DNA from: an uncultured Candidatus Poseidoniales archaeon
Lineage (GTDB): Archaea; Thermoplasmatota; Poseidoniia; Poseidoniales; Poseidoniaceae
Length of the DNA: 64,000 bases
Assembly (NCBI GenBank): GCA_964014545.1
Contig: CAXGZX010000002.1
Location: forward strand, 521 to 64,520
Direction of reading: 5' to 3'
The notes below the pieces were generated by a model that had not been told where the DNA came from, did no database searches, and saw only the letters and a program-made list of their open reading frames with translations. Of this stretch, positions 50,015 through 64,000 are shown piece by piece (position 1 is the stretch's first letter; the number at the start of each line of letters is the position of its first letter). The position numbers and the translations under genes were made by a program.

Positions 50015-50017
50015 TAG

Positions 50018-50359: not shown

Positions 50360-50380
50360 TTCTGTAAGTTATAACAAGTT

Positions 50381-51628: not shown

Positions 51629-51721
51629 GGTGCTCCCTGTTTAGTTCACTACAGGTTTAAGTTATGAACTAAGCGCCTCCAAGAGTCACAAAAGTCAGTT
51701 TTACAGCGGGCAATGAGCAGT

Positions 51722-52672
51722 TCAAAGTCCGGGAGCAGCTTCTCGCCATTCCTCGTCTTCGTCGTCGACATTGATGAACCGACGACCAGCAACTGCAGCA
51801 GCAAGAGCAATCATAGAGAGAGCTGGGATTATTTCAAAGCCTGGCAGGTAAACTCCTCTTACGTAAATGGTAATCATCTGGGTTTCAGTAATACAGCCGC
51901 CTGTTGTACAAGCAAATTCGGACTCAGCATAGAAGTCTAGTACGTGGTAAGCATCTGTCCATCCTTGATTCTTTGGTGTTCTAACCTTAATCTCAACATT
52001 TGTTGGTGTTGGACCTGGATCTACGCCTTTCTTTACCGCAGGTAGAGTGACAGTAAATCCTGCATCTTCCAGTGACTTACGGTAAGTGTCAGTAATTCCC
52101 ACCTTCATGAAGTCATACTGGTTACCTAGATTGTAAACTTTGAACTCGAATATTTTGTCGGTTTTTGGCATCAGTTGAACGAATGGTTCGGTTGCTTCTA
52201 CTTGAACTAATGAATATTGCATGATGTTAACAATCATGTTGGTGTTTGAAGATGCTGAGTTTAGTGGAGGTACACCGTTTATTTCTTGGACTGTTGCTTG
52301 AACAGATAGCGTTCTTACATCCATTGTCATGTAAGGAGTTGCTCTAACTGATATTTGGAAATCTACTGATTCTCCAGCACCAACATACATGTCACCAGGA
52401 GCGGCTGTTGCCAAACCTTCTGCATTGACGTTGAGGCTAACTTTCTCTTGGTATGCTGTAGGGTTGGTTGCAGTACAGGTAGTAAATCCAGAGTAAGTTG
52501 AACCAGGTTTTACTTCTACGTTGATAGTAGATGGTGCACAGTTAACTGAAATAGCAGCTGTCGGGGTTGGGTTTTGAGCAGCCGCTGGAGCAGCAACTAC
52601 AAGCATGGAAAATAAGTACAATGTTACAAGAAACGAAGCGCGCTTTAAGTTGGTCACAATCTCACCTATCAT
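51722..52672 (-). CDS. Secreted surface protein with PGF-CTERM-like sorting/anchor signal
   Basis: Signal MIGEIVTNLKRASFLVTLYLFSMLVVAAPAAAQ, with GGGGGTGGG upstream of ATG 52672 (the ORF extends to 52729). C terminus YLPGFEIIPALSMIALAAAVAGRRF matches the PGF + hydrophobic + RR pattern, followed by an unusual acidic extension INVDDEDEEWREAAPGL. Confidence 0.55.
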   Translation of the reverse strand: MIGEIVTNLKRASFLVTLYLFSMLVVAAPAAAQNPTPTAAISVNCAPSTINVEVKPGSTYSGFTTCTATNPTAYQEKVSLNVNAEGLATAAPGDMYVGAGESVDFQISVRATPYMTMDVRTLSVQATVQEINGVPPLNSASSNTNMIVNIMQYSLVQVEATEPFVQLMPKTDKIFEFKVYNLGNQYDFMKVGITDTYRKSLEDAGFTVTLPAVKKGVDPGPTPTNVEIKVRTPKNQGWTDAYHVLDFYAESEFACTTGGCITETQMITIYVRGVYLPGFEIIPALSMIALAAAVAGRRFINVDDEDEEWREAAPGL

Positions 52673-52751
52673 GCTTCCCACCCCCGTGACCCTCATAACC
52701 ATTTTGGGAAGATGGGAGATAATTGCCATGAAAACGGCTATTGTGAAAAAG

Positions 52752-52825
52752 TGGGCCCGAAGGGATTTGAACCCTTGACCGCCCGGTTATGAGCCGGGTG
52801 CTCTAACCAACTAAGCTACAGGCCC
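52752..52825 (-). tRNA. tRNA with anticodon CAT (elongator tRNA-Met, or tRNA-Ile2 if C34 is agmatidinylated)
   Basis: The minus strand reads GGGCCTGTAGCTTAGTTGGTTAGAGCACCCGGCTCATAACCGGGCGGTCAAGGGTTCAAATCCCTTCGGGCCCA, 74 nt. It folds as a cloverleaf: 7-bp acceptor stem with one G-U, anticodon stem CCCGG/CCGGG with loop CTCATAA, and T arm AAGGG-TTCAAAT-CCCTT. CCA is not encoded. A T5 run follows the 3' end (52746-52750). The G1-C72 pair argues against an initiator. Confidence 0.9.
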
Positions 52826-52865: not shown

Positions 52866-54161
52866 CTAACTGAATTGGGATAGAGATGACTGGCTTGGCT
52901 TAATCCACTCTCTTACCACAGCTTCTGCTGCATCTCTGATTTCCTCGGGAACAAATACCATAGCTCGTTCATTTGGCAATGCTAAAGAACGAATCATAGC
53001 AGAATGTTCAGAAACGTCTCTACCGTCTTCTAATTTGATACCTTGCTCATACGGCATGTAACCACGCTTAGAAATTGTGGCATAAAGTACGTGGATTTCT
53101 GGGTCGTATCCATGTGATTGGATGAACTCTTCTAGACGTTGTTTTACTGCATCTACCATATTTATGTCCAGTGTGTTAATTCTCAACGACTTGTGGAAAC
53201 CTCGTCGTGACAGTAATTTATCAGCGTACAGTGACAAGATTGTATCCTCATGTTTTGCCCAATCTGATAGGGCTACTTTGATGTGAGAATCATTTAATTC
53301 AGCGTATTGTACTGGTGACAAGGATTCATTGACCAGCATTTGTTCCAACCTGTGATCTAGGCTTAACTCACCTTGTTCAGCCAAGACCTTAGCACGAGAC
53401 AACATATCAACCAAATAATTTTGAGTCAGCATGTTGACCTTGTGGAAGTAGACTTGATTGTACATGTGATATCTAGTCACTAGGTATGCTTCGACTGCTG
53501 GCAAGCCCCAAGTTTTGACATAAAAATGACCATTTTTGCCAACTCTTAGCGCCCTAAACACTCGGTCGATATCAAATCCACCAATTTGGGCACCTGTGTT
53601 TGCTTGGTCTCTAACTAGGTAATCCATTCGATCAACATCAAGTTGCGATGAAACTATTTCTTTCATGAACTGCGGAATTTCCACACCTTGGTAATCTGAC
53701 TTACCATCCATAAGGGCAAACAGGCGACCAAGTCTATCAGGACCTAGAACCTCATGAACCGCCTTGCCAATTTCGGTATCTGTTGATTCAATCAACAATC
53801 GACCCCAGTGCTCATGAGAATGAAATGTGGCAAAAACTTTCGGCGTTTCCAGAAGATGTGAATATGGCGGATGACCTATATCATGCAACATAGCAGCAAG
53901 TTGAACTAACTCCGCATCATTATCGTCAATGATACCCGGTTGAACATCTTGTAATAGTTGAGTTAATTTTCTTGCGAGGTAATAAGCACCTAGAGAATGT
54001 GAGAATCGATTGTGATTAGCCGCAGGAAATACGTATTCACAAGTCGATAATTGCTGAATAGAACGTAGCCTTTGGAATTCCTTAGTGTCAATAATCTTAG
54101 CGTGGTGTGGCGGCACAAGAATATCCTTGTGAATCTCGTCCCTTATCACCCGCTCTCGCAT
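52866..54161 (-). CDS. HD-domain phosphohydrolase (dNTP triphosphohydrolase/SAMHD1-like family)
   Basis: NRFSHSLGAYYLARKL and AAMLHDIGHPPYSHLLE (the H...HD...D metal site), plus SSQLDVDRMDYLVRD, typical of the HD dGTPase-like family. Confidence 0.8.
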   Translation of the reverse strand: MRERVIRDEIHKDILVPPHHAKIIDTKEFQRLRSIQQLSTCEYVFPAANHNRFSHSLGAYYLARKLTQLLQDVQPGIIDDNDAELVQLAAMLHDIGHPPYSHLLETPKVFATFHSHEHWGRLLIESTDTEIGKAVHEVLGPDRLGRLFALMDGKSDYQGVEIPQFMKEIVSSQLDVDRMDYLVRDQANTGAQIGGFDIDRVFRALRVGKNGHFYVKTWGLPAVEAYLVTRYHMYNQVYFHKVNMLTQNYLVDMLSRAKVLAEQGELSLDHRLEQMLVNESLSPVQYAELNDSHIKVALSDWAKHEDTILSLYADKLLSRRGFHKSLRINTLDINMVDAVKQRLEEFIQSHGYDPEIHVLYATISKRGYMPYEQGIKLEDGRDVSEHSAMIRSLALPNERAMVFVPEEIRDAAEAVVREWIKPSQSSLSQFS

Positions 54162-54262
54162 TCCATCCCCACAACACGCTCGCTTTACTGTTTAAAAAGG
54201 CGCTGCAAAGATAGGCAACTATCGTTAAACATGACTAAAAGACTGATTTGCTAGCACCAAGT

Positions 54263-56023
54263 ATGGCGGATGTTCTCAAGAGCATTATGAATAAAATTAC
54301 TGATGATGACCCAGCAACTAGAGGTCAACAACTTTGGGTGATGTTTACTCTAGCGATTTTCTTAGTCGCAATTTTGAATTATTACGCCATGGTTAGAGAA
54401 CCTGACATTGTAGATATGGATGAGTTGATTGAATACAAGAATGAAGTGGTCAAAGTCGAAGGAGAAATAATTTCATGGCGGGAAGACCCATGGAACTCAG
54501 GGGATTGGGAAACCCACGTCATTGTAACAGACGGTACTGCCGTGGTTGAGGCTCGTTGGAGCCGTCCTGCAGAAATACCACCAATTGGCACAAATGTGGT
54601 AATCACTGGCAAAGTTATGGAATATGAAGGTAATATTTACATGACTGCGGTAGGCTCAGGAGCAATGGACTGGGATGAAGATGACTTACCAGACATCGTC
54701 CAGTTATCTCTACTTGATGTCGCACTGGACCCAGAAAAATACGAAGGTGAAGTGATTTCCCTCACTGGATACATCGGAGAATCAATACCACCAGATGCAA
54801 TGTTTGTATCTGCTGATTTAAGGGACCATCCTTCTTACGGCAATGCTGAACATCAGGTCAAGTTAAGCATCAGGTCTAAGGTTGGAAGTTGGATTGAAAC
54901 CTCTTCCAAAGTACAAGTTACTGGAACAATATCATATAATCAACGAGACCTGAATTGGGTTATGTCTGTACAAGGTCCAGAAATCCTTGTTGACAGAAAC
55001 CACCCTGTTGACATTATTCGATTGAATTGGGGAGAAGAGGCCACATGGAGTTATCAGTCTGGCAACCTTGTCAATATTGCTGGCTATGTAATGGTTGGAG
55101 AAGAATGGAGTTTACGAGGCCCAGGTGGAGTAACAATTTGCCTTAAACCAAGTGGCATTGACCTTGCAGCTAATGAAAACGCCTCACTCAACAATGAATT
55201 TCGAGATATTCAAGGCAGGTTGATGTGGTCTGAAGCCGATTCTAGTTGGTGTATTGATGCAAGCGAAGGCACGCCCACTGGGAATTTGATAAATTCAGAA
55301 GATGTCGTTGATTTGTTATCATTACTTTCTGGAGATCCAATAAGATTGATTGACCAGCCTAACACTAGATACACTGTCAATGCATTTGTCAGATATGCCA
55401 TTGAGCCATCAGTTGAAGATGTCAGTGGCTGGCTAGTAGACAAGATTGATTATCGAGGACAGACAAAGATTTACGCAACTTTCCCAGCCCAAACTTCAAC
55501 TCAATGGATTGAGGCTGGTCAAGCAATTACTGCCAATGTATCAGTTACCTGGGATGACACCAATATGGCGATACGGCTAATGATCCACGATTATCAACTT
55601 GGCGACGTACCTGAGGCCAAAAATTTACTTTGGGATGAAGGTGCATCACAATGGGGATATTCTAGAAGCCAAATGGTAAATCTACCAGGCATTGCGGTTC
55701 AAGATGATGACGGTCAATGGTGGTTGCAAAGAGATGGCTCGAATCAAAGTATTAGACTATCACCTAATAACAACACTATCATCGGCACAGATAGTTATCA
55801 TAGCGGTTATTCACACGTTTGGAACGGTCGAATGATGGAAGTTGCAGACCCAGAAATGATTGCAACGGTTTACCATTTGATAAATGCCGACGTAGTTGAT
55901 ACTGATGGTGACGGTTTATCTGATAATTTAGAATCTCTGTACGGCACCAACCCGTACAATGTTGATACTGATGGCGATGGTGAAAACGATCGTGATGATA
56001 ACGACACATACCCCGACTATTGA
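54263..56023 (+). CDS. N-terminally anchored surface protein with multiple OB-fold-like modules and C-terminal TSP3 repeats
   Basis: TM anchor QLWVMFTLAIFLVAILNYYAMV. OB-like strand patterns (EVVKVEGEIISW..THVIVTDGTAVVEARW..IGTNVVITGKVMEYEGNIYM, GEVISLTGYIGES..VKLSIRS..KVQVTGTISY). C-terminal DTDGDGLSDNLE and DTDGDGENDRDD. ATG 54263 is preferred over TTG 54248. Confidence 0.5.
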   Translation: MADVLKSIMNKITDDDPATRGQQLWVMFTLAIFLVAILNYYAMVREPDIVDMDELIEYKNEVVKVEGEIISWREDPWNSGDWETHVIVTDGTAVVEARWSRPAEIPPIGTNVVITGKVMEYEGNIYMTAVGSGAMDWDEDDLPDIVQLSLLDVALDPEKYEGEVISLTGYIGESIPPDAMFVSADLRDHPSYGNAEHQVKLSIRSKVGSWIETSSKVQVTGTISYNQRDLNWVMSVQGPEILVDRNHPVDIIRLNWGEEATWSYQSGNLVNIAGYVMVGEEWSLRGPGGVTICLKPSGIDLAANENASLNNEFRDIQGRLMWSEADSSWCIDASEGTPTGNLINSEDVVDLLSLLSGDPIRLIDQPNTRYTVNAFVRYAIEPSVEDVSGWLVDKIDYRGQTKIYATFPAQTSTQWIEAGQAITANVSVTWDDTNMAIRLMIHDYQLGDVPEAKNLLWDEGASQWGYSRSQMVNLPGIAVQDDDGQWWLQRDGSNQSIRLSPNNNTIIGTDSYHSGYSHVWNGRMMEVADPEMIATVYHLINADVVDTDGDGLSDNLESLYGTNPYNVDTDGDGENDRDDNDTYPDY

Positions 56024-56032
56024 GGAATTTAG

Positions 56033-57535
56033 ATGTTGGAAGCGTATTTTCTTGACCTTGGATGGTTGCTCTTTGCGCTATTCTTTGGCGTAGCGATGGG
56101 CTCCCTAACTGGTCTTATACCGGGTTTTCACGTTAACAATGTTGCACTAATTTTACTCGCATTAGCCCCCGTGTTTTTGAGTTGGGGCATTCCATTATCT
56201 GCAGTTGCAGCCATTATTGTCTCCACCGGAACGGTTCATACTTTCTTGAATTATATCCCCTCTGCACTACTTGGTGCGCCTGATGGCGATACCGCGTTAT
56301 CATTGCTTCCCGGCCATAGAATGCTATTGTCTGGTAATGCACCCAGAGGTGTTGCTTGGTCTGCTAGAGGCTCGCAACTTGGTCTGTTTCTTTCTTTACC
56401 GCTTATCATTGTGGCTAGGATTGCCTTTGGTGATGAACTTGGATGGTATGATTATCTGAGAAATATCATTTTCTTTTTACTCCTAGCAATATCATTCTTA
56501 TTACTAGCAACTGAAACTACAAGACTTGATTGGCCAAAATGGATGAGAAAACTATCGAGAAATTTACTTGGCACAGATAGTAGATTTGCTGGATTCCTAG
56601 CCGCAACTGGTTTCTTTTTACTAGCAGGATTTTATGGCTGGGCAGTATTTAGCCTACCCGCCAGATCACCAGTTGGTATTCCAGATGCAAGTTTATTATT
56701 GCCAAGTCTTGCTGGATTATTCGGCATTGCTAATTTGTTGGACATCTACGCTACTACATCCCATATACCTCCACAAAATGAAGATTGGACACTACCACCC
56801 GCAAAGCCATTGTTTGTCCCTTGTTTTTGGTCAGGAGTAGCCGGCGCATCGATGGGAGTGTTACCTGGAATGACTGCCTCTCAAGCAACTGTACTGGTAA
56901 TGGGTGGCAGAAACCTCGCAGCAAAGGTACAGGGCAAGGAAGGTTATGGCATGGATTGGGAGACCCGTCGCCTAACTGAAATGACTGATGATGAACTACT
57001 AGAAATCGCCCTTGCTGAAGCGGAAGGAGGGGTTGAGGGACCTCAAACAAAACAAGATTTAGAAGTAATTGCAATTCTTTCTGCGGTCAACACAGCTGTT
57101 ACAGTCATGGTTCTAGGGTTCCTATACATAATTGGCAGATCCCGTTCAGGTGCCACACTAGCCTTGAAAATGATGTATCCAATTGACACTTGGTCATCGG
57201 CAGAACCAACTGCAGATTTTATTCGTTTGATGTCAATTACTGTAGCGGCTGGATTAATGGCAATGCCAATTATGCGAGTTGTTGGCAAAGGTATGCTAAG
57301 ATTACATGCTGCAATACCGCTACAGCAAATGGTAATGGGAGTAATATTGTTCGTTGCTGCACTGGTATGGTTTACTACTGGTTTTATTGGCATTGGAGTA
57401 CTGATTATCGGCACAATTCTTGGATTGATACCCCCAAGAGTTGGTATACGTAGAAGTCACGGTATGGGTATTATCATTGTACCAATTATGATTTACACTT
57501 TTTCCCAAGCACAAGATGCGTTCGGTTTCCTATGA
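56033..57535 (+). CDS. Polytopic membrane protein, TctA/DUF112-like permease (tentative)
   Basis: About 12 or more hydrophobic helices. Duplicated motif GSLTGLIPGFHVNNVALILL and GASMGVLPGMTASQATVLV resembles the G-x-x-PG signature of the TctA family. GAGGA lies 6 nt before the ATG. Confidence 0.45.
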   Translation: MLEAYFLDLGWLLFALFFGVAMGSLTGLIPGFHVNNVALILLALAPVFLSWGIPLSAVAAIIVSTGTVHTFLNYIPSALLGAPDGDTALSLLPGHRMLLSGNAPRGVAWSARGSQLGLFLSLPLIIVARIAFGDELGWYDYLRNIIFFLLLAISFLLLATETTRLDWPKWMRKLSRNLLGTDSRFAGFLAATGFFLLAGFYGWAVFSLPARSPVGIPDASLLLPSLAGLFGIANLLDIYATTSHIPPQNEDWTLPPAKPLFVPCFWSGVAGASMGVLPGMTASQATVLVMGGRNLAAKVQGKEGYGMDWETRRLTEMTDDELLEIALAEAEGGVEGPQTKQDLEVIAILSAVNTAVTVMVLGFLYIIGRSRSGATLALKMMYPIDTWSSAEPTADFIRLMSITVAAGLMAMPIMRVVGKGMLRLHAAIPLQQMVMGVILFVAALVWFTTGFIGIGVLIIGTILGLIPPRVGIRRSHGMGIIIVPIMIYTFSQAQDAFGFL

Positions 57536-57553
57536 TTAAGAAATTTACCTGAG

Positions 57554-60500
57554 ATGAATATTATGAACACCAAAAAATACCCAATAATTTTGATTACACT
57601 CATGCTTTGTTCGTACTTAGCACCTGTCCTAGATTCCCAAGAAATGGCCGAACCAAACAAACCATTTGAAACATCAAGTAGGTCATCTGCTTGTATCGGT
57701 GATATTTGTATCTCCGAGGCGTTAGTAAACGCATTTGGTTCGGAAACTGGTGCCGTTGGACCTGCAGATTGGACCAGCGGAGAATGGGTTGAATTATACA
57801 ACTCTGGAACCACCACAGTTGATCTTTCAAACTGGATTTTAGATGACCATTATGACCGACCATTGAGTATGACTACCAACCATGTAGTATCTCCAAGCGG
57901 AGCGACAAATATGGACATCTTAGCAGGAGATTACATTGTTCTTGCTCGCAACGGTGATGGCGGTTCATGTGGATTTTGCATGAAGAACTCCAATGGAATG
58001 GTCAATCTTAAAGACACTAGTGGTAATTTAGTGCACAGCATAACTTGGACAACATCTCCTAGTGAGGGTGTTAGTCTAATTGAGGACATAAGTGACCCTG
58101 CTGCCGATTGGATTGAATCAACCACACTTTCACCAGGAGAAAGTAACCAAGGTGGTACACCTACTGGCCCTGTTTATTTCCCAGGTGATTTGGTAGTCAA
58201 TGAAGTAATGGCTGATGCATACCCAAGTTACGATAATGGAACATGGCCTGACGGTGAATGGGTTGAAATTCACAATCAAGGCAACTCGCCAATCGACATG
58301 ACTGGATGGCATCTCAAAGATGCCGCTGGTAACACTGTAGAATTTAATCAAAATCATTTGGTTGGGTATACCGCTGACCCTAATTCGATGATTATCAATG
58401 CAGGAGAACTCAGAGTTATTGCCATTAATGGCTCGTCTAATAGTGGTGTGCTGAATAATGCCATTGAGACACTAAGCATCCATTGGCCAAACGGTAGTAT
58501 TGCTGATGAAGTAAACTGGAGTTCAAATGAGCCAGGTTTCAGCTTGTCCCGTACCCACGGAACTGATGGTATGTATACCTCGGCGTACCCAACAGTAAAT
58601 GCAACCAATATCGGCGAAATTAATACCCTAGCAACTATGTCTAGTGACCTAATCATTACTGAGTATCTTCCTTCAACCAACACAACTGGTAACTTCCCAG
58701 ATGGCAAGTGGATTGAAATCCACAATAATGGAACCTCCTCAATCAACCTCCTTGGCTGGAGCATCACCAACGGGAAAGGAGAAATCCTATATTTTGATCC
58801 TGGTACAATAATCTTCAATCAATCCCACTCTAGTACCACCGATATATCTCCTGATGAGCGAAGATTGGTTCAAATGTCTAATAATTTTGACCTCTATGAT
58901 TACTACGAACATTTAGTAATGAAAGATGATAATGGAAATATCGTTGATTCGGGATGGCATAGTAATTACTTTGGCGATAACGTATCAATGGTAAGAGATT
59001 TAGCAAATATTGGCGCTCCATGGCTGCCCTCAAATTGGCTGACTCCTGGACAACCTGAACCGGGTGATGAGCCATACTCAATGAAGGATTTACAATTTAG
59101 TGAAATCTTACCTGATGGTCTGGGACTGGACACACAATCATGGCCACTGGGAGAGTGGATTGAATTATACAACAATGATAGTGTTGCTGTTGATTTAACT
59201 GGTTGGAAATTGAAAGCCTCAAGCAGTCGAAGCTTCACTCTAGGAGCCTACAATTTCCCACTCCAACAAGATGCTATAATCCAACCTGCTGATGTAGCCT
59301 TAATAGCGCTGAATGGTACCAACTCATTCTATCTAAAACAAACATCTGACCTCATTACTCTAGTCGATGACAGTGCTGCAATTGTTGATTCTGTAGCTTG
59401 GGACGTATCTTCGGAAAACATCTCAATGATCCCGCCTAGCAGCAGTCATGCAGGTTATACAACCATGTCGGCATCTGGAATTGCTGGTTGGGTAGAGCCT
59501 GCTTGGGCTACACCAGGCGAGATAAATCCTGAGTGGCCACAATATATTGGCTCTAACGAAGTTATTGTCACTGAGTATATGGGCTGGTGTGATGACCTAG
59601 ACGGCACGGTAAATGATTGGATTGAGATCTATAATAATGGCACATCGGCAATCGATTTGCTAAGATGGCGCATTGATACAGCCACAAACCGTCATTTTAT
59701 TCTCGAAACTGGAGAATTAGACAATACTAATTCACTCAGCGTCATAGCAAATTCCTCTAAATCAACTGTTGTTGCCCCTGGAGAATATGCCCTTATTAGT
59801 CTACCATACCAATTCTTGTGGGCTACGGATTTACCTGAAATCTATAACCCAGATGGACTGGCCATCAGTGAATCTTCTGTTCACGGTGAAGGGTTAACTA
59901 CCATCACTTGTCAATCTTGGATTTCAGATAATGGAGTCGACTGGAGTGTAGCAGCTTATCCAACACCGGGTACCGAAAATGTTGTGTCAAGTGATTTCGC
60001 CACTGCTGGGGACATACTGCTAACTCGTGTCTCACCTTATGATAATGAATTTATTCAACTCAAAAATATCGGTCAAAATGATGCTTATCTAATGGATTGG
60101 CAAATTAGCATAAATGATGGTACAGTGTACGAGTGTGATATTGATTCAACTATGTTTTTCCCTTCGATGTCTAGTATCATTATCTCTGATAGTAACGCAA
60201 TGAATTCCTTCACTGGCCAAGGCATGACATTTATCGACGAGATTAATCCGGTATTCTTACAATTTAGCGACATTGGTTGTTCTGACTTGTATATCCCTGA
60301 CACTGGCGTGGTGATTACCATCTTGGACCCAAGTGGCAACCTATCTGATGCTTTCGTGTTTGATAGCGGACCTGCTAGTCATGCAGGATGGACCAGTGAA
60401 GCCATCTCAGTACCAACAAACAGTGTATCTGATGATGAATTCATCTACGTTAGAGGTGATGGTTGCAATAATCTACCTGACACAGATAGTGCTGATGATT

Positions 60501-62533
60501 GGAAATATTTGTGGTCAATAAGTGGATTACACAACACTCTTTGCTTGTCTACTGACTTTACTGAAGGAGAATCTATCGTAACCCCAATTGTTGGACCGCA
60601 AAATGGTTTATTGGAGTTGATTGAATGGATTGATGGCAGTCAAACAAGTCTGCAAATTCAACTATACCAAATGCAGGAAGCAAATCTCGTCCAAGCCTTG
60701 TTAGATGCCTTGAACAGAGGCGTCAATGTAGAATTGATGCTTGATCCAGGATGTTATAATTGTAATATTTGGTCTGAAACAGATTTGCAATACAAGAACG
60801 ATTATGCTTACACGCTAATTCAAGCGGGTGCGACTGTCTATGAATTTAACACTGATTCAAATGAACCATATTTGTACTTGCACAGTAAAGTAGTGGTAAG
60901 AGATTCAAACAGTATTTGGATGTCATCTGGAAATTGGAAACCTTCATCTGTTCCAGCGCCCGACGTTAGAGGCAATGTCGAATGGAGTGTTATCATTGAT
61001 AATGATGATTTAGCCCAAATGGTTGAACAACAATTCAATCTTGACAAAGAATTTGCTGAATTAATGGCGCTAAATGATTATGATCAATATCAATTCTATC
61101 CGCCAGGTACTATCGGTGGTGGCGGAGTTCAATCGGCTATCCAAACCAGTATTTCAGGAGAATTACTCACTTGCCCAACTAATTGTGTTACTAAGATTGT
61201 TGAATTCATAATGTCTGCTGAAGATGAGGTCTTACTTTCTCAACAGACTCTTGATGCTGACTGGGCGTATGGTTGGGGGGATGAAAACCCAATAATTACG
61301 GCTCTACATGATGTTGCAATGCAGGGAGTAGGTGTTCACTTAATCATCAACGGCGCATACCTTGATGATGACGACCAAGAAGTAGTTGACTTGTTCAACG
61401 AAATTTGGAATGGCACCGAGGGATTAGATGCTTCTGCTGTTGTTATGGGTGAAGACGATGATGTCGCTAAGTTACACAACAAAGGAATTATTGTCGATGG
61501 GGAAAGTGTACTAGTCTCCTCAATAAACATGGGTAGTTCTGCAATGAACCGTAACCGCGAGATGGGAGTAATCATTCATTCATCTGTTGTTACTCAATAT
61601 TACCTAGATGGATGGCATGCAGATTGGAATCGCCTAGACAATGTCACAGATACTGACCAAGATTCACTGACTGACAAATATGAAGTTGCTAATGGATTAA
61701 ACCGAACCAAGCGTACCATGCCTTCAGGAGTTACTGAAGATATGTTTGATTCAGACGGCGATGGCGTCAACAATACGGATGAGGAAAAACAAGGTAGCCA
61801 CCCAATGTTAGCAGATACTGATGGCGATTGTGCTATTGATTCCATAGAGATCACTTGGGCACAGAGAACAGCCCTCAACGCATCGGTTGCTAATGTGGCT
61901 ATTTACGATGCTCTAACCCTAGAAGACGCTGATGGCGACGGCATCAAAGATACCGACCAATATGGTTGCGACCTTTCATCTGGCAACTCGCCAACCGAGC
62001 CACAAGATGATGACAATGTTGACCCAGAAGCCGATGACGACATGGACACGATACCAAATAAGTTTGATTTGTGCCCAGATACTGAACCAGATGCATTGAC
62101 TGACTTTGATGGATGCTCAGCTGACCAATTGGCTGAACTGGCTGATGCTAGCGATGGCGAAAATGATGACACTGGTAAAAACACCATGTTGATTGTGATG
62201 ATAGTAGCAGCAATCTTTTCAATTGGGGCATTTATCATCCTAAAGCAGTTAGAAAGTAAGGCAATTGAGGCTAAAAATTTAGTTAGCCTTGAGGAGCAAG
62301 AAATGATGCTAGTAGAGAATTCAGAATCAGTTGATACTGAATCATGGGCAATGCCGGTTCTTGACGGTAGTGGTGAAAGCCAGACTACTGAGGAGAGCAG
62401 CGATTTCTCACCTGAAGAATTAGCCAAATTCCCCGGCTGGACAGAGGATGTAATCCAACGTTATCTCGACAACGGATGGACGATTGACCAACTTGCTGAA
62501 TACTATCAAGAACAACTCGAAGGCAACCAATAA
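57554..62533 (+). CDS. Giant surface enzyme: 6 lamin-tail-domain (LTD) modules + double-HKD phospholipase D-fold domain + TSP3 repeats + C-terminal TM anchor
   Basis: Signal KKYPIILITLMLCSYLAPVL. LTD signatures GEWVELYNSG..DLSNWIL, GEWVEIHNQG..DMTGWHL, GKWIEIHNNG..NLLGWSI, GEWIELYNND..DLTGWKL, NDWIEIYNNG..DLLRWRI, NEFIQLKNIG. HKD motifs LHSKVVVRDSNSIWMSSGNW (His codon 60881) and LHNKGIIVDGESVLVSSINM (His codon 61475). TSP3-like DSDGDGVNNTDE, DTDGDCAIDSIE, DADGDGIKDTDQ. TM helix MLIVMIVAAIFSIGAFIIL. Confidence 0.8.
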   Translation: MNIMNTKKYPIILITLMLCSYLAPVLDSQEMAEPNKPFETSSRSSACIGDICISEALVNAFGSETGAVGPADWTSGEWVELYNSGTTTVDLSNWILDDHYDRPLSMTTNHVVSPSGATNMDILAGDYIVLARNGDGGSCGFCMKNSNGMVNLKDTSGNLVHSITWTTSPSEGVSLIEDISDPAADWIESTTLSPGESNQGGTPTGPVYFPGDLVVNEVMADAYPSYDNGTWPDGEWVEIHNQGNSPIDMTGWHLKDAAGNTVEFNQNHLVGYTADPNSMIINAGELRVIAINGSSNSGVLNNAIETLSIHWPNGSIADEVNWSSNEPGFSLSRTHGTDGMYTSAYPTVNATNIGEINTLATMSSDLIITEYLPSTNTTGNFPDGKWIEIHNNGTSSINLLGWSITNGKGEILYFDPGTIIFNQSHSSTTDISPDERRLVQMSNNFDLYDYYEHLVMKDDNGNIVDSGWHSNYFGDNVSMVRDLANIGAPWLPSNWLTPGQPEPGDEPYSMKDLQFSEILPDGLGLDTQSWPLGEWIELYNNDSVAVDLTGWKLKASSSRSFTLGAYNFPLQQDAIIQPADVALIALNGTNSFYLKQTSDLITLVDDSAAIVDSVAWDVSSENISMIPPSSSHAGYTTMSASGIAGWVEPAWATPGEINPEWPQYIGSNEVIVTEYMGWCDDLDGTVNDWIEIYNNGTSAIDLLRWRIDTATNRHFILETGELDNTNSLSVIANSSKSTVVAPGEYALISLPYQFLWATDLPEIYNPDGLAISESSVHGEGLTTITCQSWISDNGVDWSVAAYPTPGTENVVSSDFATAGDILLTRVSPYDNEFIQLKNIGQNDAYLMDWQISINDGTVYECDIDSTMFFPSMSSIIISDSNAMNSFTGQGMTFIDEINPVFLQFSDIGCSDLYIPDTGVVITILDPSGNLSDAFVFDSGPASHAGWTSEAISVPTNSVSDDEFIYVRGDGCNNLPDTDSADDWKYLWSISGLHNTLCLSTDFTEGESIVTPIVGPQNGLLELIEWIDGSQTSLQIQLYQMQEANLVQALLDALNRGVNVELMLDPGCYNCNIWSETDLQYKNDYAYTLIQAGATVYEFNTDSNEPYLYLHSKVVVRDSNSIWMSSGNWKPSSVPAPDVRGNVEWSVIIDNDDLAQMVEQQFNLDKEFAELMALNDYDQYQFYPPGTIGGGGVQSAIQTSISGELLTCPTNCVTKIVEFIMSAEDEVLLSQQTLDADWAYGWGDENPIITALHDVAMQGVGVHLIINGAYLDDDDQEVVDLFNEIWNGTEGLDASAVVMGEDDDVAKLHNKGIIVDGESVLVSSINMGSSAMNRNREMGVIIHSSVVTQYYLDGWHADWNRLDNVTDTDQDSLTDKYEVANGLNRTKRTMPSGVTEDMFDSDGDGVNNTDEEKQGSHPMLADTDGDCAIDSIEITWAQRTALNASVANVAIYDALTLEDADGDGIKDTDQYGCDLSSGNSPTEPQDDDNVDPEADDDMDTIPNKFDLCPDTEPDALTDFDGCSADQLAELADASDGENDDTGKNTMLIVMIVAAIFSIGAFIILKQLESKAIEAKNLVSLEEQEMMLVENSESVDTESWAMPVLDGSGESQTTEESSDFSPEELAKFPGWTEDVIQRYLDNGWTIDQLAEYYQEQLEGNQ
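57704..60140 (+). repeat. Protein-level tandem array of six LTD modules of about 150 aa each (period about 450 nt)
   Basis: The W(V/I)E(L/I)(Y/H)N core recurs near nt 57779, 58251, 58701, 59151 and 59612, with a degenerate copy near 60045. The repeats are diverged at the DNA level. Confidence 0.7.
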
Positions 62534-62579
62534 CATCGTAAGATTGACAAAGGACTTAACATTAGCAGGACTGATAAAG

Positions 62580-63329
62580 ATGCGTTACTCTACCAGCAAT
62601 CCAGTTATGACTCAAAATTTTTGGTCCAATATTCAAGGACAAAACACTATGACTTTGCAAGGTACAATCGGCAAACTTGCCTACTTACTTGGCATCGTAA
62701 CCATAACGGCATTAATTTCAGCATATGTTGCACTAGATGCTCTAGCAGCAGGCAACGCATCTGTCATCAATGGTATGGCATGGGGTGGTCTACTAGGCGG
62801 AATTGTGGTAGCACTGATATTGATGTTTATGAGGCCGGAAAATCCTGGAGCATTGATGACTATTTACGCAGTATTGCAAGGAATGTTTGTTGGGGCAATA
62901 TCTCTGGTGTTTGAAGCATTTTACACCGGTATAATCATCCAAGCCGCATTTGGCACACTGTTTATCACTGGCGGAATGCTAATTATTTACTCATCTAGAG
63001 CCATTAGACCAACTCCAACTTTTAACAAAGTGATTGGCAGCCTAGTAGGGGCAATAATGATGCTGTATCTTGTCTCAATATTCTTTTCATTATTTACTGC
63101 CTATGAAGTACCATTTGTTCATTCCTCTGGCCCTATTGGAATTGGCTTCACTATATTCGTTCTTTCAATCGCTGCGCTAAGTTTGATTTCCGATTTTGGG
63201 TTCATTGAATCGGGGGTAAAGTGGCAAGCACCCAAGAATGCAGAATGGTGGGGCGCATTTGGTGTTTTAGTGACAATAATTTGGATCTACATCGAAATGA
63301 TTAGACTGCTGTCAAAAATTCGTGACTGA
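62580..63329 (+). CDS. Bax inhibitor-1-like (COG4760-type) integral membrane protein (tentative)
   Basis: MRYSTSNPVMTQNF N terminus resembles the SSNPV(F/L) start of BaxI_1-family proteins, followed by 6-7 TM helices. ATG 62580 is in frame within the longer ORF from 62484, which would overlap the upstream gene. Confidence 0.45.
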   Translation: MRYSTSNPVMTQNFWSNIQGQNTMTLQGTIGKLAYLLGIVTITALISAYVALDALAAGNASVINGMAWGGLLGGIVVALILMFMRPENPGALMTIYAVLQGMFVGAISLVFEAFYTGIIIQAAFGTLFITGGMLIIYSSRAIRPTPTFNKVIGSLVGAIMMLYLVSIFFSLFTAYEVPFVHSSGPIGIGFTIFVLSIAALSLISDFGFIESGVKWQAPKNAEWWGAFGVLVTIIWIYIEMIRLLSKIRD

Positions 63330-63400
63330 TAAAATCACAGTTTTTGCTGCCTAACTGACATAGAGTTCATACGGTATCGTCATTACCACGAAGTGATAAC

Positions 63401-64000
63401 ATGACACGAAGCATTCCAGTAGTAGATTTTGCTGACTATCTGTCCGGTGACCAAGACCGACGTAATGACTTCATTGAACTTGTCGGCAATTCACTCAAGG
63501 ACATCGGATTCTTCGCTCTGAAAAACCACGGCATACCATTAGAGTTAATCCATCAATCATATGACAATGGGGATGCTTTTTTCGGACTTGACCAAAACAG
63601 TAAATCCAACTATTCACGCGCAGAAATTTCCCATCAACGTGGCTATACTGCTTTTGGTGTCGAGCATGCCAAAGATAATCCAGCACCTGATTTGAAAGAA
63701 TTCTGGCAAACTGGCCGTACTCACCAACCTGGTGAAAACCCCTCTTATCCAGCAAATGTTTGGCCTGATGCTGATGTGCCACAATTCAAGGAAACCATTG
63801 ACGACTTGTATAACAGAATGGAACATGTATCAAGAGAATTACTGGCTGCTTGTAGCATATATCTTGGCAAAGAAGCGAATTGGCTGCCCGAAATGACCGA
63901 TGATGGTAATACCATTATGCGTATTATTCACTACCCACCGCTTGGCGAAGATGTTCAAGAAGGCGCAGTCCGGTCAGCAGCTCACGAAGATATCAATTTC
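63401..64000 (+). CDS. 2-oxoglutarate/Fe(II)-dependent oxygenase (isopenicillin N synthase-like), 3' end truncated by the window edge
   Basis: Own translation from ATG 63401: MTRSIPVVDFADYLSG...DIGFFALKNHGIP...MRIIHYPPLGEDVQEGAVRSAAHEDINF. This shows the DIOX_N pattern and the start of the H-x-D iron motif. The frame stays open to nt 64000. The ORF is absent from the supplied track, presumably because it has no stop in the window. Confidence 0.8.
   Translation, partial: MTRSIPVVDFADYLSGDQDRRNDFIELVGNSLKDIGFFALKNHGIPLELIHQSYDNGDAFFGLDQNSKSNYSRAEISHQRGYTAFGVEHAKDNPAPDLKEFWQTGRTHQPGENPSYPANVWPDADVPQFKETIDDLYNRMEHVSRELLAACSIYLGKEANWLPEMTDDGNTIMRIIHYPPLGEDVQEGAVRSAAHEDINF

What the first reader, a model, noticed from the sequence alone, without database searches (positions are those of the whole stretch)
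54263..62533. Three-gene surface operon: multi-OB-fold anchor protein + TctA/DUF112-like permease + 6xLTD-PLD giant enzyme (candidate extracellular nucleic-acid capture, hydrolysis and uptake module)
Seen in sequence: three + strand genes are separated by only 9 nt (56024-56032) and 18 nt (57536-57553), with GAGGA 6 nt before the ATG at 56033, so they very probably form one transcript. Gene 1 has an N-terminal TM anchor and at least two or three consecutive segments with the strand pattern of OB folds, and it ends in TSP3 Ca-binding repeats. Gene 2 is a polytopic protein with the duplicated G-x-x-PG motif of TctA/DUF112 permeases. Gene 3 carries six LTD modules and a complete double-HKD PLD fold. 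Established knowledge: LTD and OB (tRNA_anti-like) domains are typical substrate-binding accessories of secreted or wall-anchored bacterial nucleases (ExeM/NucH-type, YhcR-type). The PLD superfamily contains true nucleases (Nuc, BfiI) as well as lipid enzymes. An HD-domain dNTPase-like gene sits divergently upstream (52866-54161). Inference: this is a cell-surface module that binds and hydrolyses extracellular nucleic acid, or another phosphodiester polymer, and imports the products. I know of no described archaeal system with this composition.
Basis: partly seen in the sequence, partly recalled or inferred. Interest (0 to 1): 0.8.

Follow-up and report, generated by a model that had tools for sequence, protein, structure and literature searches.

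The report
Candidate DNA-scavenging trio in marine archaea
Three tightly packed genes of an abundant, uncultured ocean archaeon (Marine Group II) encode a membrane-tethered chain of five OB-fold binding domains, a TctA-type permease and a giant surface enzyme with a nuclease-like PLD core; the set is conserved across the order and probably captures and cuts dissolved DNA/RNA or another phosphodiester polymer outside the cell, but the substrate is unproven.

Summary
Three + strand genes (54263-56023, 56033-57535, 57554-62533) are separated by 9 and 18 nt in a Poseidoniales (MGIIa) genome.

- **Gene 1:** an N-terminal TM anchor, five (not two or three) OB-like beta units, and TSP3 repeats. All top-50 Foldseek hits are OB-fold proteins, mostly tandem-OB DNA binders.
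- **Gene 2:** a TctA permease of the euryarchaeal family arCOG04469, described as mostly stand-alone.
- **Gene 3:** signal peptide, five robust LTDs plus one degenerate, an intact double-HKD PLD core, TSP3-like repeats, a TM anchor and a conserved cytoplasmic tail.

Gene 1 precedes TctA in every testable locus of a lineage-diverse sample (66/66). An HKD gene follows in 53/54, across two deep clades with different flanking genes. One sister clade has a thiolase there instead.

The HKD core is closest to Nuc/Zucchini/NucT, PLD3/4 exonucleases and a nuclease-like Serratia PLD. A thymidine phosphorylase gene travels with the PLD gene.

The nucleic-acid reading is therefore the best supported, but not shown. 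All ectodomains are very acidic, and one lineage inserts a CD36-like gene, a hint towards lipid. The HD gene is not part of the unit.

Verdict: a new variant of known LTD/OB extracellular nuclease loci, with an unexpected OB-protein partner for TctA.

The parts
54191..54199 (+). TATA-like box (TTTAAAAA), the candidate promoter of the unit in the HD/gene 1 divergent intergenic region
   Evidence: It is the only TATA-like match upstream of any of g1, g2, g3 or BaxI. There are no T-runs of 6 or more on the + strand in 54000-63500. This is a pattern match only; there is no transcript evidence.
54263..56023 (+). Gene 1: type-II membrane-anchored penta-OB protein (586 aa)
   Evidence: ORF. The start at ATG 54263 is supported by invariant M1-A2-D3 in homologs. 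AF2 model pLDDT 73.7. Foldseek top hits are p204 HINab (2.5e-10), RPA70, RADX, CST, POT1, TEBP and LEF-3. NCBI names a cluster member 'OB-fold nucleic acid binding domain-containing protein'.
54320..54397 (+). Gene 1 TM helix (aa 20-45), the best-conserved part of gene 1
   Evidence: Helix 20-44 in the model. Mean identity is 0.57 across 11 divergent lineages, against 0.37-0.40 for OB3-5. N39, Y41, A42 and R45 are invariant. I infer a contact with a membrane partner, most likely TctA.
54446..55894 (+). Five OB-like five-stranded beta units (aa 62-130, 146-236, 256-332, 351-446, 457-544)
   Evidence: Secondary structure of the model and Foldseek. OB1 gives sub-threshold PF01336 hits in 16 of 24 family members, best E 1.6e-4. 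Each unit is net acidic, -4 to -7.
55895..56020 (+). Gene 1 C-terminal TSP3 Ca-binding repeats (aa 545-586)
   Evidence: Pfam TSP3_bac 26.6 bits against a cut-off of 25. DTDGDG at aa 546 and 568.
56022..56026 (+). SD-like GAGGA overlapping the gene 1 stop codon, 6 nt before the gene 2 ATG
   Evidence: An SD-like motif lies within 18 nt of the g2 start in 83 of 91 loci.
56033..57535 (+). Gene 2: TctA-family permease (500 aa), arCOG04469/COG1784 type
   Evidence: Pfam PF01970 E 1.5e-41. G-x-x-PG at aa 27 and 275. It is 57-91% identical across lineages in which g1 is 29-71% identical. It has no solved relative.
57554..62533 (+). Gene 3: type-I membrane-anchored LTD-PLD ectoenzyme (1659 aa)
   Evidence: ORF, Pfam LTD + PLDc_2, topology.
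57554..57637 (+). Gene 3 signal peptide (aa 1-28)
   Evidence: Hydrophobic segment at aa 8-29 after a basic N-terminus. Inferred; no predictor was run.
57695..59833 (+). Five robust lamin-tail domains (aa 48-165, 210-322, 363-468, 510-616, 667-760)
   Evidence: Pfam LTD E 3e-69, 5 stretches. Self-built HMM E 1e-29 to 1e-50.
59999..60355 (+). Degenerate sixth LTD-like unit (aa 816-934)
   Evidence: E 0.013 with the self-built HMM. Orthologs in L094, L096 and L155 score six LTD stretches.
60554..61633 (+). Double-HKD PLD catalytic core (aa ~1001-1360). HKD1 is at 60881-60904 (HSKVVVRD) and HKD2 at 61475-61498 (HNKGIIVD).
   Evidence: Pfam PLDc_2 E 1.7e-34. AF2 pLDDT 87.9, pTM 0.90. Both motifs are intact in all six orthologs checked. 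These are the best-conserved blocks of gene 3, at 0.68-0.72.
61646..62113 (+). Acidic TSP3-like Ca-binding stalk (aa ~1365-1520)
   Evidence: DSDGDG at aa 1399 and DADGDG at aa 1458. No Pfam hit above the cut-off in this protein.
62174..62257 (+). Gene 3 C-terminal TM anchor (aa 1541-1568)
   Evidence: Hydropathy peak of 2.98. Acidic residues lie before it and lysines after it.
62258..62530 (+). Conserved cytoplasmic tail (aa 1569-1659), with the motif FPGWTEDVIQRYLDNGWTIDQLAEYY
   Evidence: Residues 1601-1650 are conserved at 0.60 across five deep lineages, better than the LTDs. There is no other copy in the window. Function unknown.

Best explanation
The three genes form one conserved cell-surface unit of Poseidoniales that captures and hydrolyses an extracellular phosphodiester polymer, most likely dissolved DNA/RNA, next to a TctA-type secondary transporter.

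Gene 3 is the enzyme. It is a type-I anchored protein whose five or six distal LTD modules reach away from the cell. Its membrane-proximal double-HKD core cuts phosphodiester bonds by the metal-independent phospho-histidine mechanism of the PLD superfamily.

Gene 1 is a type-II anchored chain of five OB folds that holds the polymer or its fragments at the membrane. Its conserved TM helix and proximal OB units dock on the TctA permease. In this way gene 1 takes the place of the missing TctC binding protein and TctB small subunit.

Gene 2 (TctA) then imports a small anionic product. Inside the cell, the thymidine/pyrimidine-nucleoside phosphorylase gene that always travels with the PLD gene would feed nucleosides into central metabolism.

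Shown: gene order and spacing, domain content, folds, intact catalytic motifs, and conservation.
Inferred: co-transcription, the gene 1-TctA contact, nucleic acid as substrate, and what TctA carries.
For: Unit:
- 9- and 18-nt spacers.
- The only TATA-like box is upstream of g1, and there are no T-runs in the unit.
- The g1-g2 spacer is 3-13 nt in 86 of 91 loci, and an SD-like motif is present in 83 of 91.
- g1 is upstream of TctA in 83 of 85 MGIIa loci and 66 of 66 diverse loci. An HKD gene is downstream in 61 of 61 and 53 of 54.
- The trio is kept where the flanks differ (L094, L096, L155) and in both major clades of the TctA tree.

Gene 1-TctA docking:
- There is a conservation gradient: TM 0.57, OB1 0.53, OB3-5 0.37-0.40, with an invariant polar N39 and R45 in or at the helix.
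- TctA itself is 57-91% conserved.
- No TctB or TctC was found among the neighbours.

Nucleic-acid reading:
- All top-50 Foldseek hits for g1 are OB-fold proteins, mostly tandem-OB DNA/RNA binders. PF01336 hits occur in 16 of 24 members.
- The HKD profile is closest to Zucchini (1e-23), Nuc (6e-23) and NucT (2e-16), against about 1e-7 for lipid PLDs.
- NCBIfam ranks DrmC and NucT ahead of cardiolipin synthases.
- The fold is closest to 7e0m and the PLD3/PLD4 5' exonucleases. The authors of 7e0m describe it as nuclease-like and unsuited to acyl chains (PMC8004604).
- The motifs are GS/SS-type, as in the nucleases.
- The same parts list (LTD + OB + phosphodiesterase + C-terminal anchor, Ca-dependent) makes up the nuclease ExeM (PMC6085458). 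LTD+OB+nuclease proteins sit next to transporters in DNA-degradation loci (PMC8289736). The LTD-nuclease Hvo_1477 serves eDNA metabolism in Haloferax (PMC5118699).
- A true thymidine phosphorylase (449 bits against a cut-off of 269) lies downstream of the PLD gene in every locus with at least 3.5 kb of sequence after the HKD core: 80 loci show it and none with that much room lacks it. It is directly adjacent in the second clade. It was not seen in the 7 kb visible downstream in the PLD-less locus L100.
Against: - There is no biochemical or expression evidence.
- Gene 1 (D+E 16.4%, K+R 6.1%) and gene 3 (15.7% and 3.4%) are very acidic, and every OB unit is net negative. That is unusual for nucleic-acid binders unless Ca2+/Mg2+ bridges the contact.
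- OB folds also bind oligosaccharides and other ligands, and no OB Pfam family reaches its cut-off.
- Small single-HKD nucleases may top profile rankings simply because they are minimal cores. Foldseek E-values for lipid PLDs are only about 3 logs worse.
- One lineage inserts a CD36-like gene between TctA and PLD, and the PLD-less clade has a thiolase after TctA. Both are lipid-flavoured.
- TctA (arCOG04469) is near-universal in Euryarchaeota, mostly stand-alone, and predicted to carry carboxylates (PMC5898192). To my knowledge, nucleotide transport by a TTT member has never been shown.
- The gene 1 + TctA pair can exist without the PLD.
- In ExeM the LTD is dispensable for DNA degradation.
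Confidence: 0.45

Rival explanations
1. Lipid version. Gene 3 is a true surface phospholipase D that strips head groups from phospholipids of algal debris, vesicles or neighbouring cells. The LTDs mediate membrane or particle contact. Gene 1 + TctA import a carboxylate or other small anion released in the process. The unit serves the lipid-based heterotrophy already proposed for MGII.
For: - Lipid hydrolysis is the archetypal PLD-superfamily activity, and lipid PLD1/2 and Streptomyces PLD match the model at E 1e-17 to 1e-18.
- A CD36-family-like two-TM ectodomain protein is inserted between TctA and LTD-PLD in 13 loci of one lineage. Pfam CD36 hits 6 of 6 orthologs, best E 1e-9, and three weak segments align in order with CD36 5lgd.
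- A thiolase follows TctA in the PLD-less clade.
- LTDs were proposed to direct hydrolases to membranes (Mans 2004, as cited in PMC6085458).
- The acidic ectodomains are no obstacle for lipid substrates.
- MGII transcribe beta-oxidation genes highly (PMC9723583).
Against: - The HKD profile scores lipid PLDs, PS synthase and cardiolipin synthases far below Nuc/Zuc/NucT and DrmC.
- The compact 360-aa core lacks the extra loops of Streptomyces and eukaryotic PLDs. It resembles PLD3/4 and 7e0m, whose authors stress nuclease-like pockets.
- This reading gives the five-OB array no role.
- The Pdp gene, not a lipid gene, co-travels with the PLD in both clades.
- The CD36-like gene is confined to one lineage, and the thiolase may simply be the next gene after a deletion.
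Confidence: 0.2
2. Two unrelated functions side by side. Gene 1 + TctA is a self-contained two-component transporter for an unknown solute, with the OB protein as a tethered receptor or scaffold. The LTD-PLD protein is an independent ectoenzyme that only shares a transcript or neighbourhood through the generally strong synteny of Poseidoniales genomes.
For: - The whole region (STT3, GARS, CarS, three surface proteins, HD..., BaxI, 2OG, Pdp) is collinear across MGIIa.
- The gene 1 + TctA pair persists without PLD.
- The g2-g3 spacer varies: 9, 18, 26, 66, 69 and 134 nt.
- A gene can be inserted between TctA and PLD.
- TctA is an ancient, mostly stand-alone family.
Against: - HKD is downstream of TctA in 53 of 54 diverse loci, across two deep clades in which the upstream (HD or not) and downstream (BaxI/2OG or Pdp directly) genes differ.
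- No TATA-like box lies before g3 in this window, and the spacers in L094 are 9-10 nt.
- Both exposed proteins share TSP3 Ca-binding modules.
Confidence: 0.2
3. Competence-like DNA uptake. The OB array binds single-stranded DNA produced by the PLD nuclease and threads it, rather than mononucleotides, through or alongside the TctA protein. This would be functionally analogous to ComEA/ComEC plus a surface nuclease.
For: - A TM helix followed by an OB fold mirrors the ComEC N-terminus. Three family members give weak DUF4131 hits over exactly that segment, E 0.01-0.06.
- The structural neighbours of the tandem OB array are ssDNA-binding proteins.
- NucT, a PLD-family nuclease, is among the closest sequence relatives.
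Against: - The DUF4131 hits are not significant.
- There is no competence domain, no metallo-beta-lactamase domain, no pilus genes and no translocase ATPase in the unit.
- TctA-type proteins belong to families of small-solute carriers (established knowledge), not polymer channels.
- The OB surfaces are acidic.
Confidence: 0.05
4. Adhesion or surface architecture. The LTD and OB arrays with Ca-binding repeats mainly act as adhesins or envelope scaffolds for particle attachment, and the HKD domain plays a minor or regulatory role.
For: - The proteins are large, acidic, repeat-rich and sequon-rich (20 N-x-S/T sequons in gene 3), with TSP3 repeats.
- The distal domains evolve fast.
- Neighbouring genes encode further unknown surface proteins.
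Against: - The HKD motifs are intact in every lineage examined, and they are the most conserved part of gene 3.
- The tight coupling to a highly conserved permease is not explained.
Confidence: 0.05

Closest known systems
ExeM / Xds-type extracellular nucleases (Shewanella, Vibrio)
   Same: Signal peptide, LTD, OB-fold nucleic-acid-binding region, phosphodiesterase domain and C-terminal TM anchor. The enzyme is retained at the membrane and depends on Ca2+ (PMC6085458). The MGII trio carries the same parts list and has Ca-binding repeats.
   Different: In ExeM all parts are in one 871-aa polypeptide with one LTD, two OB regions and an EEP catalytic domain. Here the OB array (x5) is a separate, oppositely anchored protein, there are 5-6 LTDs, the catalytic domain is a metal-independent double-HKD PLD core, and a TctA gene lies between the two.
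Haloferax volcanii Hvo_1477 (LTD + thermonuclease, eDNA metabolism)
   Same: An archaeal, surface-attached LTD-bearing enzyme implicated in the use of extracellular DNA (PMC5118699).
   Different: It has an SNase catalytic domain and a lipobox anchor, and no linked OB protein or TctA is described. No SNase domain is detected here.
Ca. Izemoplasma 'DNA-degradation loci'
   Same: A large OB + nuclease + LTD protein is colocalised with transporter genes and nucleoside-catabolic genes (PMC8289736). Here the colocalised genes are TctA and thymidine phosphorylase.
   Different: Those loci are bacterial and use an ABC transporter with a substrate-binding subunit and a different nuclease fold.
PLD-superfamily nucleases: Nuc, NucT, Zucchini, PLD3/PLD4
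   Same: HxK(x)4D(x)6(G/S)SxN motifs and fold. They are the closest relatives by profile (Zuc 1e-23, Nuc 6e-23, NucT 2e-16) and by structure (PLD3/4, TM 0.67-0.70).
   Different: Nuc, NucT and Zucchini are about 155-200-aa single-HKD proteins that dimerise. Here two HKD halves are fused in a 1659-aa anchored protein. The NucT equivalog cut-offs are far from met: 40 bits against 297. Identity to PLD3/4 is only 12-16%.
Tripartite tricarboxylate transporters (TctABC) and archaeal arCOG04469
   Same: Gene 2 is a clear TctA of the euryarchaeal type discussed in PMC5898192.
   Different: There is no TctB and no TctC/Bug-type binding protein. Instead a TM-anchored penta-OB protein is translationally coupled upstream. 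arCOG04469 was described as mostly stand-alone.
ComEC (N-terminal DUF4131: TM helices + OB fold)
   Same: The layout of a TM helix followed by a membrane-proximal OB fold, in a context that includes a nuclease-like enzyme. Three members give weak DUF4131 hits.
   Different: The hits are not significant. There is no competence or metallo-beta-lactamase domain, and the membrane protein is a TctA carrier rather than a ComEC channel.

Membership tests
PLD superfamily (HKD phosphodiesterases) | Two HxK(x)4D(x)6(G/S)(G/S)xN motifs | tested here: met
   HSKVVVRDSNSIWMSSGN at aa 1110 and HNKGIIVDGESVLVSSIN at aa 1308. Both are intact in six orthologs.
PLD superfamily (HKD phosphodiesterases) | Pfam PLDc_2 above the gathering score, and a bilobal alpha/beta PLD fold | tested here: met
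   118.9 bits against a cut-off of 27, two stretches. AF2 pLDDT 87.9, pTM 0.90. Foldseek E 1e-20 to PLD-fold structures.
PLD-family nucleases (Nuc/NucT/Zucchini/PLD3-4 clade) | Closer in sequence and structure to nucleases than to lipid-acting members | tested here: inconclusive
   The profile ranking favours Zuc/Nuc/NucT by about 16 logs over lipid PLDs. The fold ranking favours 7e0m and PLD3/4 by only about 3 logs.
PLD-family nucleases (Nuc/NucT/Zucchini/PLD3-4 clade) | NCBIfam NucT equivalog score cut-off | tested here: not met
   40.2 bits against a cut-off of 297, and DrmC 78 against 133. Gene 3 is not an ortholog of either.
PLD-family nucleases (Nuc/NucT/Zucchini/PLD3-4 clade) | Hydrolysis of DNA or RNA | not testable with these tools
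   Needs an enzyme assay.
LTD-bearing extracellular nucleases (ExeM/Xds, Hvo_1477) | Secreted or anchored protein with a lamin-tail domain | tested here: met
   Pfam LTD 230.7 bits. Signal peptide and C-terminal TM anchor.
LTD-bearing extracellular nucleases (ExeM/Xds, Hvo_1477) | EEP or SNase catalytic domain in the same polypeptide | tested here: not met
   No such Pfam or NCBIfam hit in gene 3. The only catalytic domain is PLDc_2.
LTD-bearing extracellular nucleases (ExeM/Xds, Hvo_1477) | OB-fold nucleic-acid-binding region in the same polypeptide (ExeM) | tested here: not met
   The OB units are in the separate gene 1.
Tripartite tricarboxylate transporter (TTT) | TctA large membrane subunit | tested here: met
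   PF01970 142.8 bits against a cut-off of 28.9.
Tripartite tricarboxylate transporter (TTT) | TctB small subunit and TctC/Bug periplasmic binding protein encoded alongside | tested here: not met
   None of the eight neighbouring proteins scanned, nor the neighbours in L001-L004, carry such domains.
Tripartite tricarboxylate transporter (TTT) | Transport of tricarboxylates or other carboxylates | not testable with these tools
   Needs a transport assay.
OB-fold nucleic-acid-binding domains (Pfam clan, e.g. PF01336 tRNA_anti-codon) | Five-stranded closed beta-barrel OB topology | tested here: met
   Five beta1-5 units in the model, OB3 with a helix between strands 3 and 4. All top-50 Foldseek hits are OB proteins. 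Model confidence is moderate (pLDDT 74, pTM 0.45), and whole-chain TM-scores are low because the domain arrangement is uncertain.
OB-fold nucleic-acid-binding domains (Pfam clan, e.g. PF01336 tRNA_anti-codon) | Sequence match above the Pfam gathering score | tested here: not met
   Window protein 14.8 bits, best family member 22 bits, cut-off 27. Sub-threshold hits occur in 16 of 24 members.
OB-fold nucleic-acid-binding domains (Pfam clan, e.g. PF01336 tRNA_anti-codon) | Binding of nucleic acid | not testable with these tools
   Needs EMSA or anisotropy. The net acidic charge of every unit argues for caution.
ComEC-type DNA uptake | DUF4131 + competence domain (+ metallo-beta-lactamase) | tested here: not met
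   Only three weak DUF4131 hits (E of 0.0095 or worse). No competence or MBL domain anywhere in the unit.

The most novel reading that the evidence does not exclude
The membrane-tethered penta-OB protein is a new kind of partner subunit for a TctA-family permease, replacing both TctB and TctC. Together with the LTD-PLD nuclease it would form a polymer-fed import machine. Extracellular DNA/RNA would be captured and cut at the surface, and phosphorylated products (nucleotides, oligonucleotides or even ssDNA) would be imported directly. This would be a substrate class and an architecture never described for the TTT family, operating in one of the most abundant archaeal groups of the surface ocean.
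Probability: 0.12. Interest if true: 0.85.

Novelty: new variant of a known kind. Interest (0 to 1): 0.58.

Why it matters
[quoted passage not shown] Their proposed diet (proteins, lipids) rests on annotation alone. A unit conserved across most of the order sampled here, built for capturing and cutting extracellular phosphodiester polymers, would add dissolved DNA/RNA, a major pool of organic phosphorus and nitrogen, to what they are thought to consume. It would also give a concrete, clonable target (an HKD ectodomain of about 360 aa and an OB array) for biochemical tests.

Independently of the substrate, the strict coupling of a TM-anchored OB protein to the ancient 'stand-alone' archaeal TctA family gives the first testable hint of how these permeases, which lack TctB and TctC, might receive their substrate.

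Tried and rejected
1. Sequence searches of gene 1 against the PDB, as a single sequence and as two profiles, found nothing significant. RPA2 and YhaM OB domains scored E 0.3-1.2.
2. The gene 2 homolog search returned only relatives of 88-100% identity and gave no reach.
3. The GTDB genome scan with a TctA alignment was saturated by MGIIa (best 80 of 363). I therefore could not test whether TctA genes of other Euryarchaeota have OB-type neighbours.
4. TctA hits in plasmids were two stand-alone cyanobacterial genes, which was uninformative.
5. No solved TctA relative exists.
6. The contexts of the nearest non-MGII HKD relatives (Methanocalculus P0272, P0281) gave no substrate hint.
7. CBM_5_12 hits in 6 of 24 gene 1 relatives are about 28-aa matches over the last hairpin of OB1. 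I rejected them as motif-level noise.
8. HD as a member of the unit is rejected. It is absent in L096 and in the second major clade, and present in only 37 of 50 diverse loci.
9. The downstream phosphorylase as an AMP phosphorylase (the archaeal NMP pathway) is rejected. It scores as thymidine/pyrimidine-nucleoside phosphorylase, and its AMP_phos score is 174 against a cut-off of 535.
10. Reading 7e0m as a 'lipid PLD' was revised after reading the paper.
11. Literature searches for MGII + lamin tail, phospholipase D or tricarboxylate, and two key MGII papers, mention none of these genes. The search for CD36 in prokaryotes was uninformative.
12. The 673-aa 'PLD-only' proteins on long contigs have the length of the C-terminal part of gene 3. 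They are probably split gene calls, and I did not follow them further.

Full report
**Origin and observation**

The window belongs to a Poseidoniaceae (Marine Group II a) archaeon. Its TctA gene is 100% identical to one in MAG NP73 and 97% identical to one in a contig labelled MGIIa-L1. Gene 1 relatives are named Poseidoniales or Euryarchaeota archaeon.

The junctions read TGA-GGAATTTAG-ATG (9 nt, with GAGGA overlapping the stop codon) and TGA plus 18 nt and then ATG.

Pfam confirms TSP3 in gene 1, TctA in gene 2 (E 1.5e-41), and LTD (E 3e-69) plus two PLDc_2 in gene 3. It also confirms an HD/HD_assoc_2 protein divergently upstream and a BaxI_1 protein downstream. Two full HKD motifs, two G-x-x-PG motifs and the TM segments were located by script.

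**Gene 1**

No sequence method names gene 1. It has no PDB relative, and every public name is 'hypothetical' apart from one PGAP label, 'OB-fold nucleic acid binding domain-containing protein'.

An exhaustive HMMER scan of 1.84 billion representatives found only about 15 full-length clusters, down to 28% identity. Everything else matches only the TSP3 tail. The family is therefore narrow.

An AlphaFold2 model from 24 homologs (pLDDT 73.7, pTM 0.45) shows a long N-terminal helix at aa 20-44, followed by five consecutive five-stranded beta units. Foldseek against the PDB gave 103 hits at E of 1e-3 or better. The 50 listed are all OB-fold proteins: p204 HINab (2.5e-10), RPA70, RADX, CST, POT1, TEBP-alpha, Teb1, LEF-3, HIN-200 domains, and the anticodon-binding domains of Asp/Asn-tRNA synthetases. 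Whole-chain TM-scores are low (about 0.18) because the relative orientation of the domains is uncertain, so this establishes the fold class and not the function.

At sequence level, 16 of 24 divergent family members give sub-threshold hits to PF01336 at OB1, with a best E of 1.6e-4. A few touch DUF4131, MCM_OB and OB_YrrC.

Two further properties matter:
- Conservation falls with distance from the membrane. The TM helix scores 0.57, OB1 0.53, OB2 0.48 and OB3-5 0.37-0.40, and N39, Y41, A42 and R45 are invariant.
- Every OB unit is net acidic.

**Gene 2**

Gene 2 is a clear TctA and is much more conserved than its neighbours: 57-91% identity where gene 1 is 29-71% and gene 3 is 32-50%. It has no solved relative.

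Makarova et al. place such proteins in arCOG04469/COG1784. [quoted passage not shown] They describe it as 'in most archaea ... encoded by stand-alone genes' and predict it to carry carboxylates (PMC5898192). No TctB or TctC was found among the neighbours.

**Gene 3**

Gene 3 has these parts, in order:
- a signal peptide;
- five robust LTDs plus a degenerate sixth;
- a compact double-HKD core;
- an acidic stalk with TSP3-like DxDGDG repeats;
- a TM anchor;
- a 91-aa cytoplasmic tail, whose motif FPGWTEDVIQRYLDNGWTIDQLAEYY is better conserved than the LTDs.

The HKD core models with high confidence (pLDDT 87.9, pTM 0.90).

By profile against PDB sequences, the best matches are mouse Zucchini/MitoPLD (1.1e-23), 7e0m (1.5e-23), Nuc (6e-23) and NucT (2e-16). 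PLD3 follows at about 1e-9, and lipid PLDs and PS synthase at about 1e-7. NCBIfam ranks DrmC and NucT ahead of cardiolipin synthases, all far below their cut-offs.

By fold, 7e0m and the PLD3/PLD4 5' exonucleases lead at about 1e-20 (TM 0.65-0.70), and lipid PLDs follow at 1e-17 to 1e-18.

7e0m is the Serratia plymuthica 'PLD'. Its authors stress that its loops, its GS-type motifs and its positively charged pocket resemble Nuc/Zuc/NucT. [quoted passage not shown] The MGII motifs are also GS/SS-type.

The balance therefore favours a nuclease-like enzyme, but it is not decisive. Minimal single-HKD proteins may rank high simply because they have no insertions.

**Is it one unit?**

In this window the only TATA-like box lies upstream of gene 1. 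There is none before g2, g3 or BaxI, and there are no T-runs of 6 or more on the + strand between 54000 and 63500. Across 91 loci the g1-g2 spacer is 3-13 nt in 86, and an SD-like motif precedes g2 in 83.

In 80 GTDB representative MGIIa species:
- LTD follows TctA in 71 of 71 testable loci;
- HKD follows in 61 of 61;
- gene 1 precedes TctA in 83 of 85;
- HD is present in 70 of 70.

The whole region is collinear in MGIIa, so that alone proves little. The informative cases are the divergent lineages:
- **L094** (gene 1 at 37% identity) keeps the trio with 10- and 9-nt spacers.
- **L096** (32%) keeps it with an unrelated secreted protein upstream instead of HD, an 820-aa TctA, and thymidine phosphorylase 9 nt after the PLD gene.
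- **L155** has a TctA that is only 48% identical to its best match in the query panel, and still keeps LTDx6-PLD followed by the phosphorylase.

In a lineage-diverse metagenome sample, gene 1 precedes TctA in 66 of 66 loci and an HKD gene follows in 53 of 54. HD is present in only 37 of 50.

Two variants exist. Thirteen loci of one lineage carry an extra 896-aa gene between TctA and a shorter LTDx2-PLD. The clade of L009, L010 and L100 has gene 1-TctA-thiolase and no PLD. On a TctA neighbour-joining tree, the thiolase clade is sister to two large PLD-linked clades. With so distant an outgroup, gain and loss cannot be told apart.

The conclusions are that gene 1 + TctA is the invariant core, that LTD-PLD is a stable third member across most of the order sampled here, and that HD is not part of the unit.

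**Context bearing on the substrate**

The Glycos_transf_3/PYNP_C gene downstream is a true thymidine/pyrimidine-nucleoside phosphorylase. It scores NF004490 449 bits against a cut-off of 269, and it is not an AMP phosphorylase.

Of 128 loci with an HKD gene after TctA, 80 show the phosphorylase downstream on the same strand. No locus with at least 3.5 kb of room lacks it. It is directly adjacent in eight loci of the second clade. It was not seen in the 7 kb visible downstream in the PLD-less locus L100. This is modest support for a nucleoside or DNA connection.

Against this, the inserted 896-aa gene has one TM helix at each end and matches Pfam CD36 in 6 of 6 orthologs, with a best E of 1e-9. 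Three weak segments align in order with CD36 5lgd, although the PDB E-value of 0.89 is not significant. CD36-family proteins are lipid receptors, and thiolase is a beta-oxidation enzyme. These are lipid-flavoured hints.

Gene 1 and gene 3 are also extremely acidic, with K+R at 6.1% and 3.4%. That is compatible with cation-bridged binding in seawater but is not what classical nucleic-acid binders look like.

**Comparison with what is known**

ExeM of Shewanella combines a signal peptide, an LTD, two OB regions, an EEP nuclease and a C-terminal anchor. It needs Ca2+ and stays on the membrane. Its OB region is essential and its LTD is dispensable on plates (PMC6085458).

Ca. Izemoplasma DNA-degradation loci place an OB + nuclease + LTD protein beside transporter genes (PMC8289736). 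Haloferax Hvo_1477 is an LTD-thermonuclease implicated in eDNA metabolism (PMC5118699).

The MGII trio has the same parts list, but it differs in four ways:
- the parts are distributed over two oppositely anchored proteins;
- it uses a PLD-type catalytic core;
- it multiplies the LTD and OB modules;
- it is wired to a TctA permease rather than an ABC system.

None of the MGII papers searched mentions these genes. I therefore classify it as a new variant of a known kind.

**Verdict**

The most likely explanation (confidence 0.45) is a surface unit that captures and hydrolyses extracellular nucleic acid or a similar phosphodiester polymer, with the OB protein docked on TctA. Rivals are:
- a lipid-directed PLD (0.2);
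- two unrelated functions side by side (0.2);
- competence-like DNA uptake (0.05);
- adhesion or surface architecture (0.05).

What TctA transports is unknown, and this is the weakest link. The decisive tests are an enzyme assay of the HKD ectodomain, binding assays of the OB array, multimer modelling of gene 1 with TctA, and transcript mapping.

Noticed in passing
L148:8668-11358 (also L146, L147, L149, L151, L152, L154, L160, L167, L170, L171, L173, L178); absent from the window: An 896-aa protein with one TM helix at each end is inserted between TctA and a shortened LTDx2-PLD in one MGII lineage. All 6 orthologs tested hit Pfam CD36 (best E 1e-9), and three weak segments align in order with human CD36 (5lgd), but the PDB E-value is only 0.89. 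I know of no archaeal CD36-superfamily homolog having been described, and one literature search was uninformative. If real, this is notable in its own right.
   Followed up: partly
window 62354-62503 (gene 3 aa 1601-1650): The cytoplasmic tail of the surface enzyme carries a motif, FPGWTEDVIQRYLDNGWTIDQLAEYY, conserved at 0.60 across five deep lineages. That is better than the LTD modules. It has no Pfam family and no second copy in the window. It suggests an unknown cytoplasmic partner or a sorting signal.
   Followed up: partly
L096:3425-5887; L009:2420-4054; L010:12276-13919: The central loop of TctA is a hotspot for insertions. L096 has about 275 extra residues with two more hydrophobic segments (820 aa in total), and the thiolase-linked clade has about 45 extra residues at the same place.
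   Followed up: partly
L012:16398-17483 (99% relative of the window); L096:10939-12285; beyond the window end: A thymidine/pyrimidine-nucleoside phosphorylase and a 2OG-Fe(II) oxygenase lie downstream on the same strand in 55 of 55 MGIIa loci. The window itself ends inside the 2OG gene (63401-64000). In the second major clade the phosphorylase follows the PLD gene directly.
   Followed up: yes
L001:9066-9644 and 9973-13938: In one NCBI MAG the gene 3 ortholog is called as two ORFs: a 192-aa LTD fragment and a 1321-aa remainder. This is a frameshift, an assembly error or a pseudogene. The 673-aa 'PLD-only' proteins on long contigs (P0245, P0246) are probably similar split calls.
   Followed up: no
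L055 (NZEQ01000004.1) and L076 (CAXQWT010000055.1): Contigs carrying the MGII trio (TctA 83-84% identical to the window) are deposited in MAGs labelled Verrucomicrobiales bacterium and Salipiger bermudensis. This is likely binning contamination in public records.
   Followed up: no
window 62484-63329: The mechanical ORF start of the BaxI_1 gene (TTG 62484) overlaps the end of gene 3. The Pfam match starts at residue 39, and the ATG at 62580 is the more likely start. That leaves a 46-nt spacer with no TATA-like box, so BaxI may be co-transcribed with the trio.
   Followed up: partly
window 48284-52729: Three putative surface or membrane proteins without any Pfam family (576, 415 and 335 aa), plus an SMR-like 113-aa ORF at 50018-50359. 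The three large ones have counterparts of similar length and orientation in L002-L004, L008 and L010.
   Followed up: no
window 52751-52825 (- strand): A single tRNA-Met (CAT) lies between the 335-aa surface-protein gene and the HD gene. It is the only RNA gene detected in the 64-kb window.
   Followed up: yes
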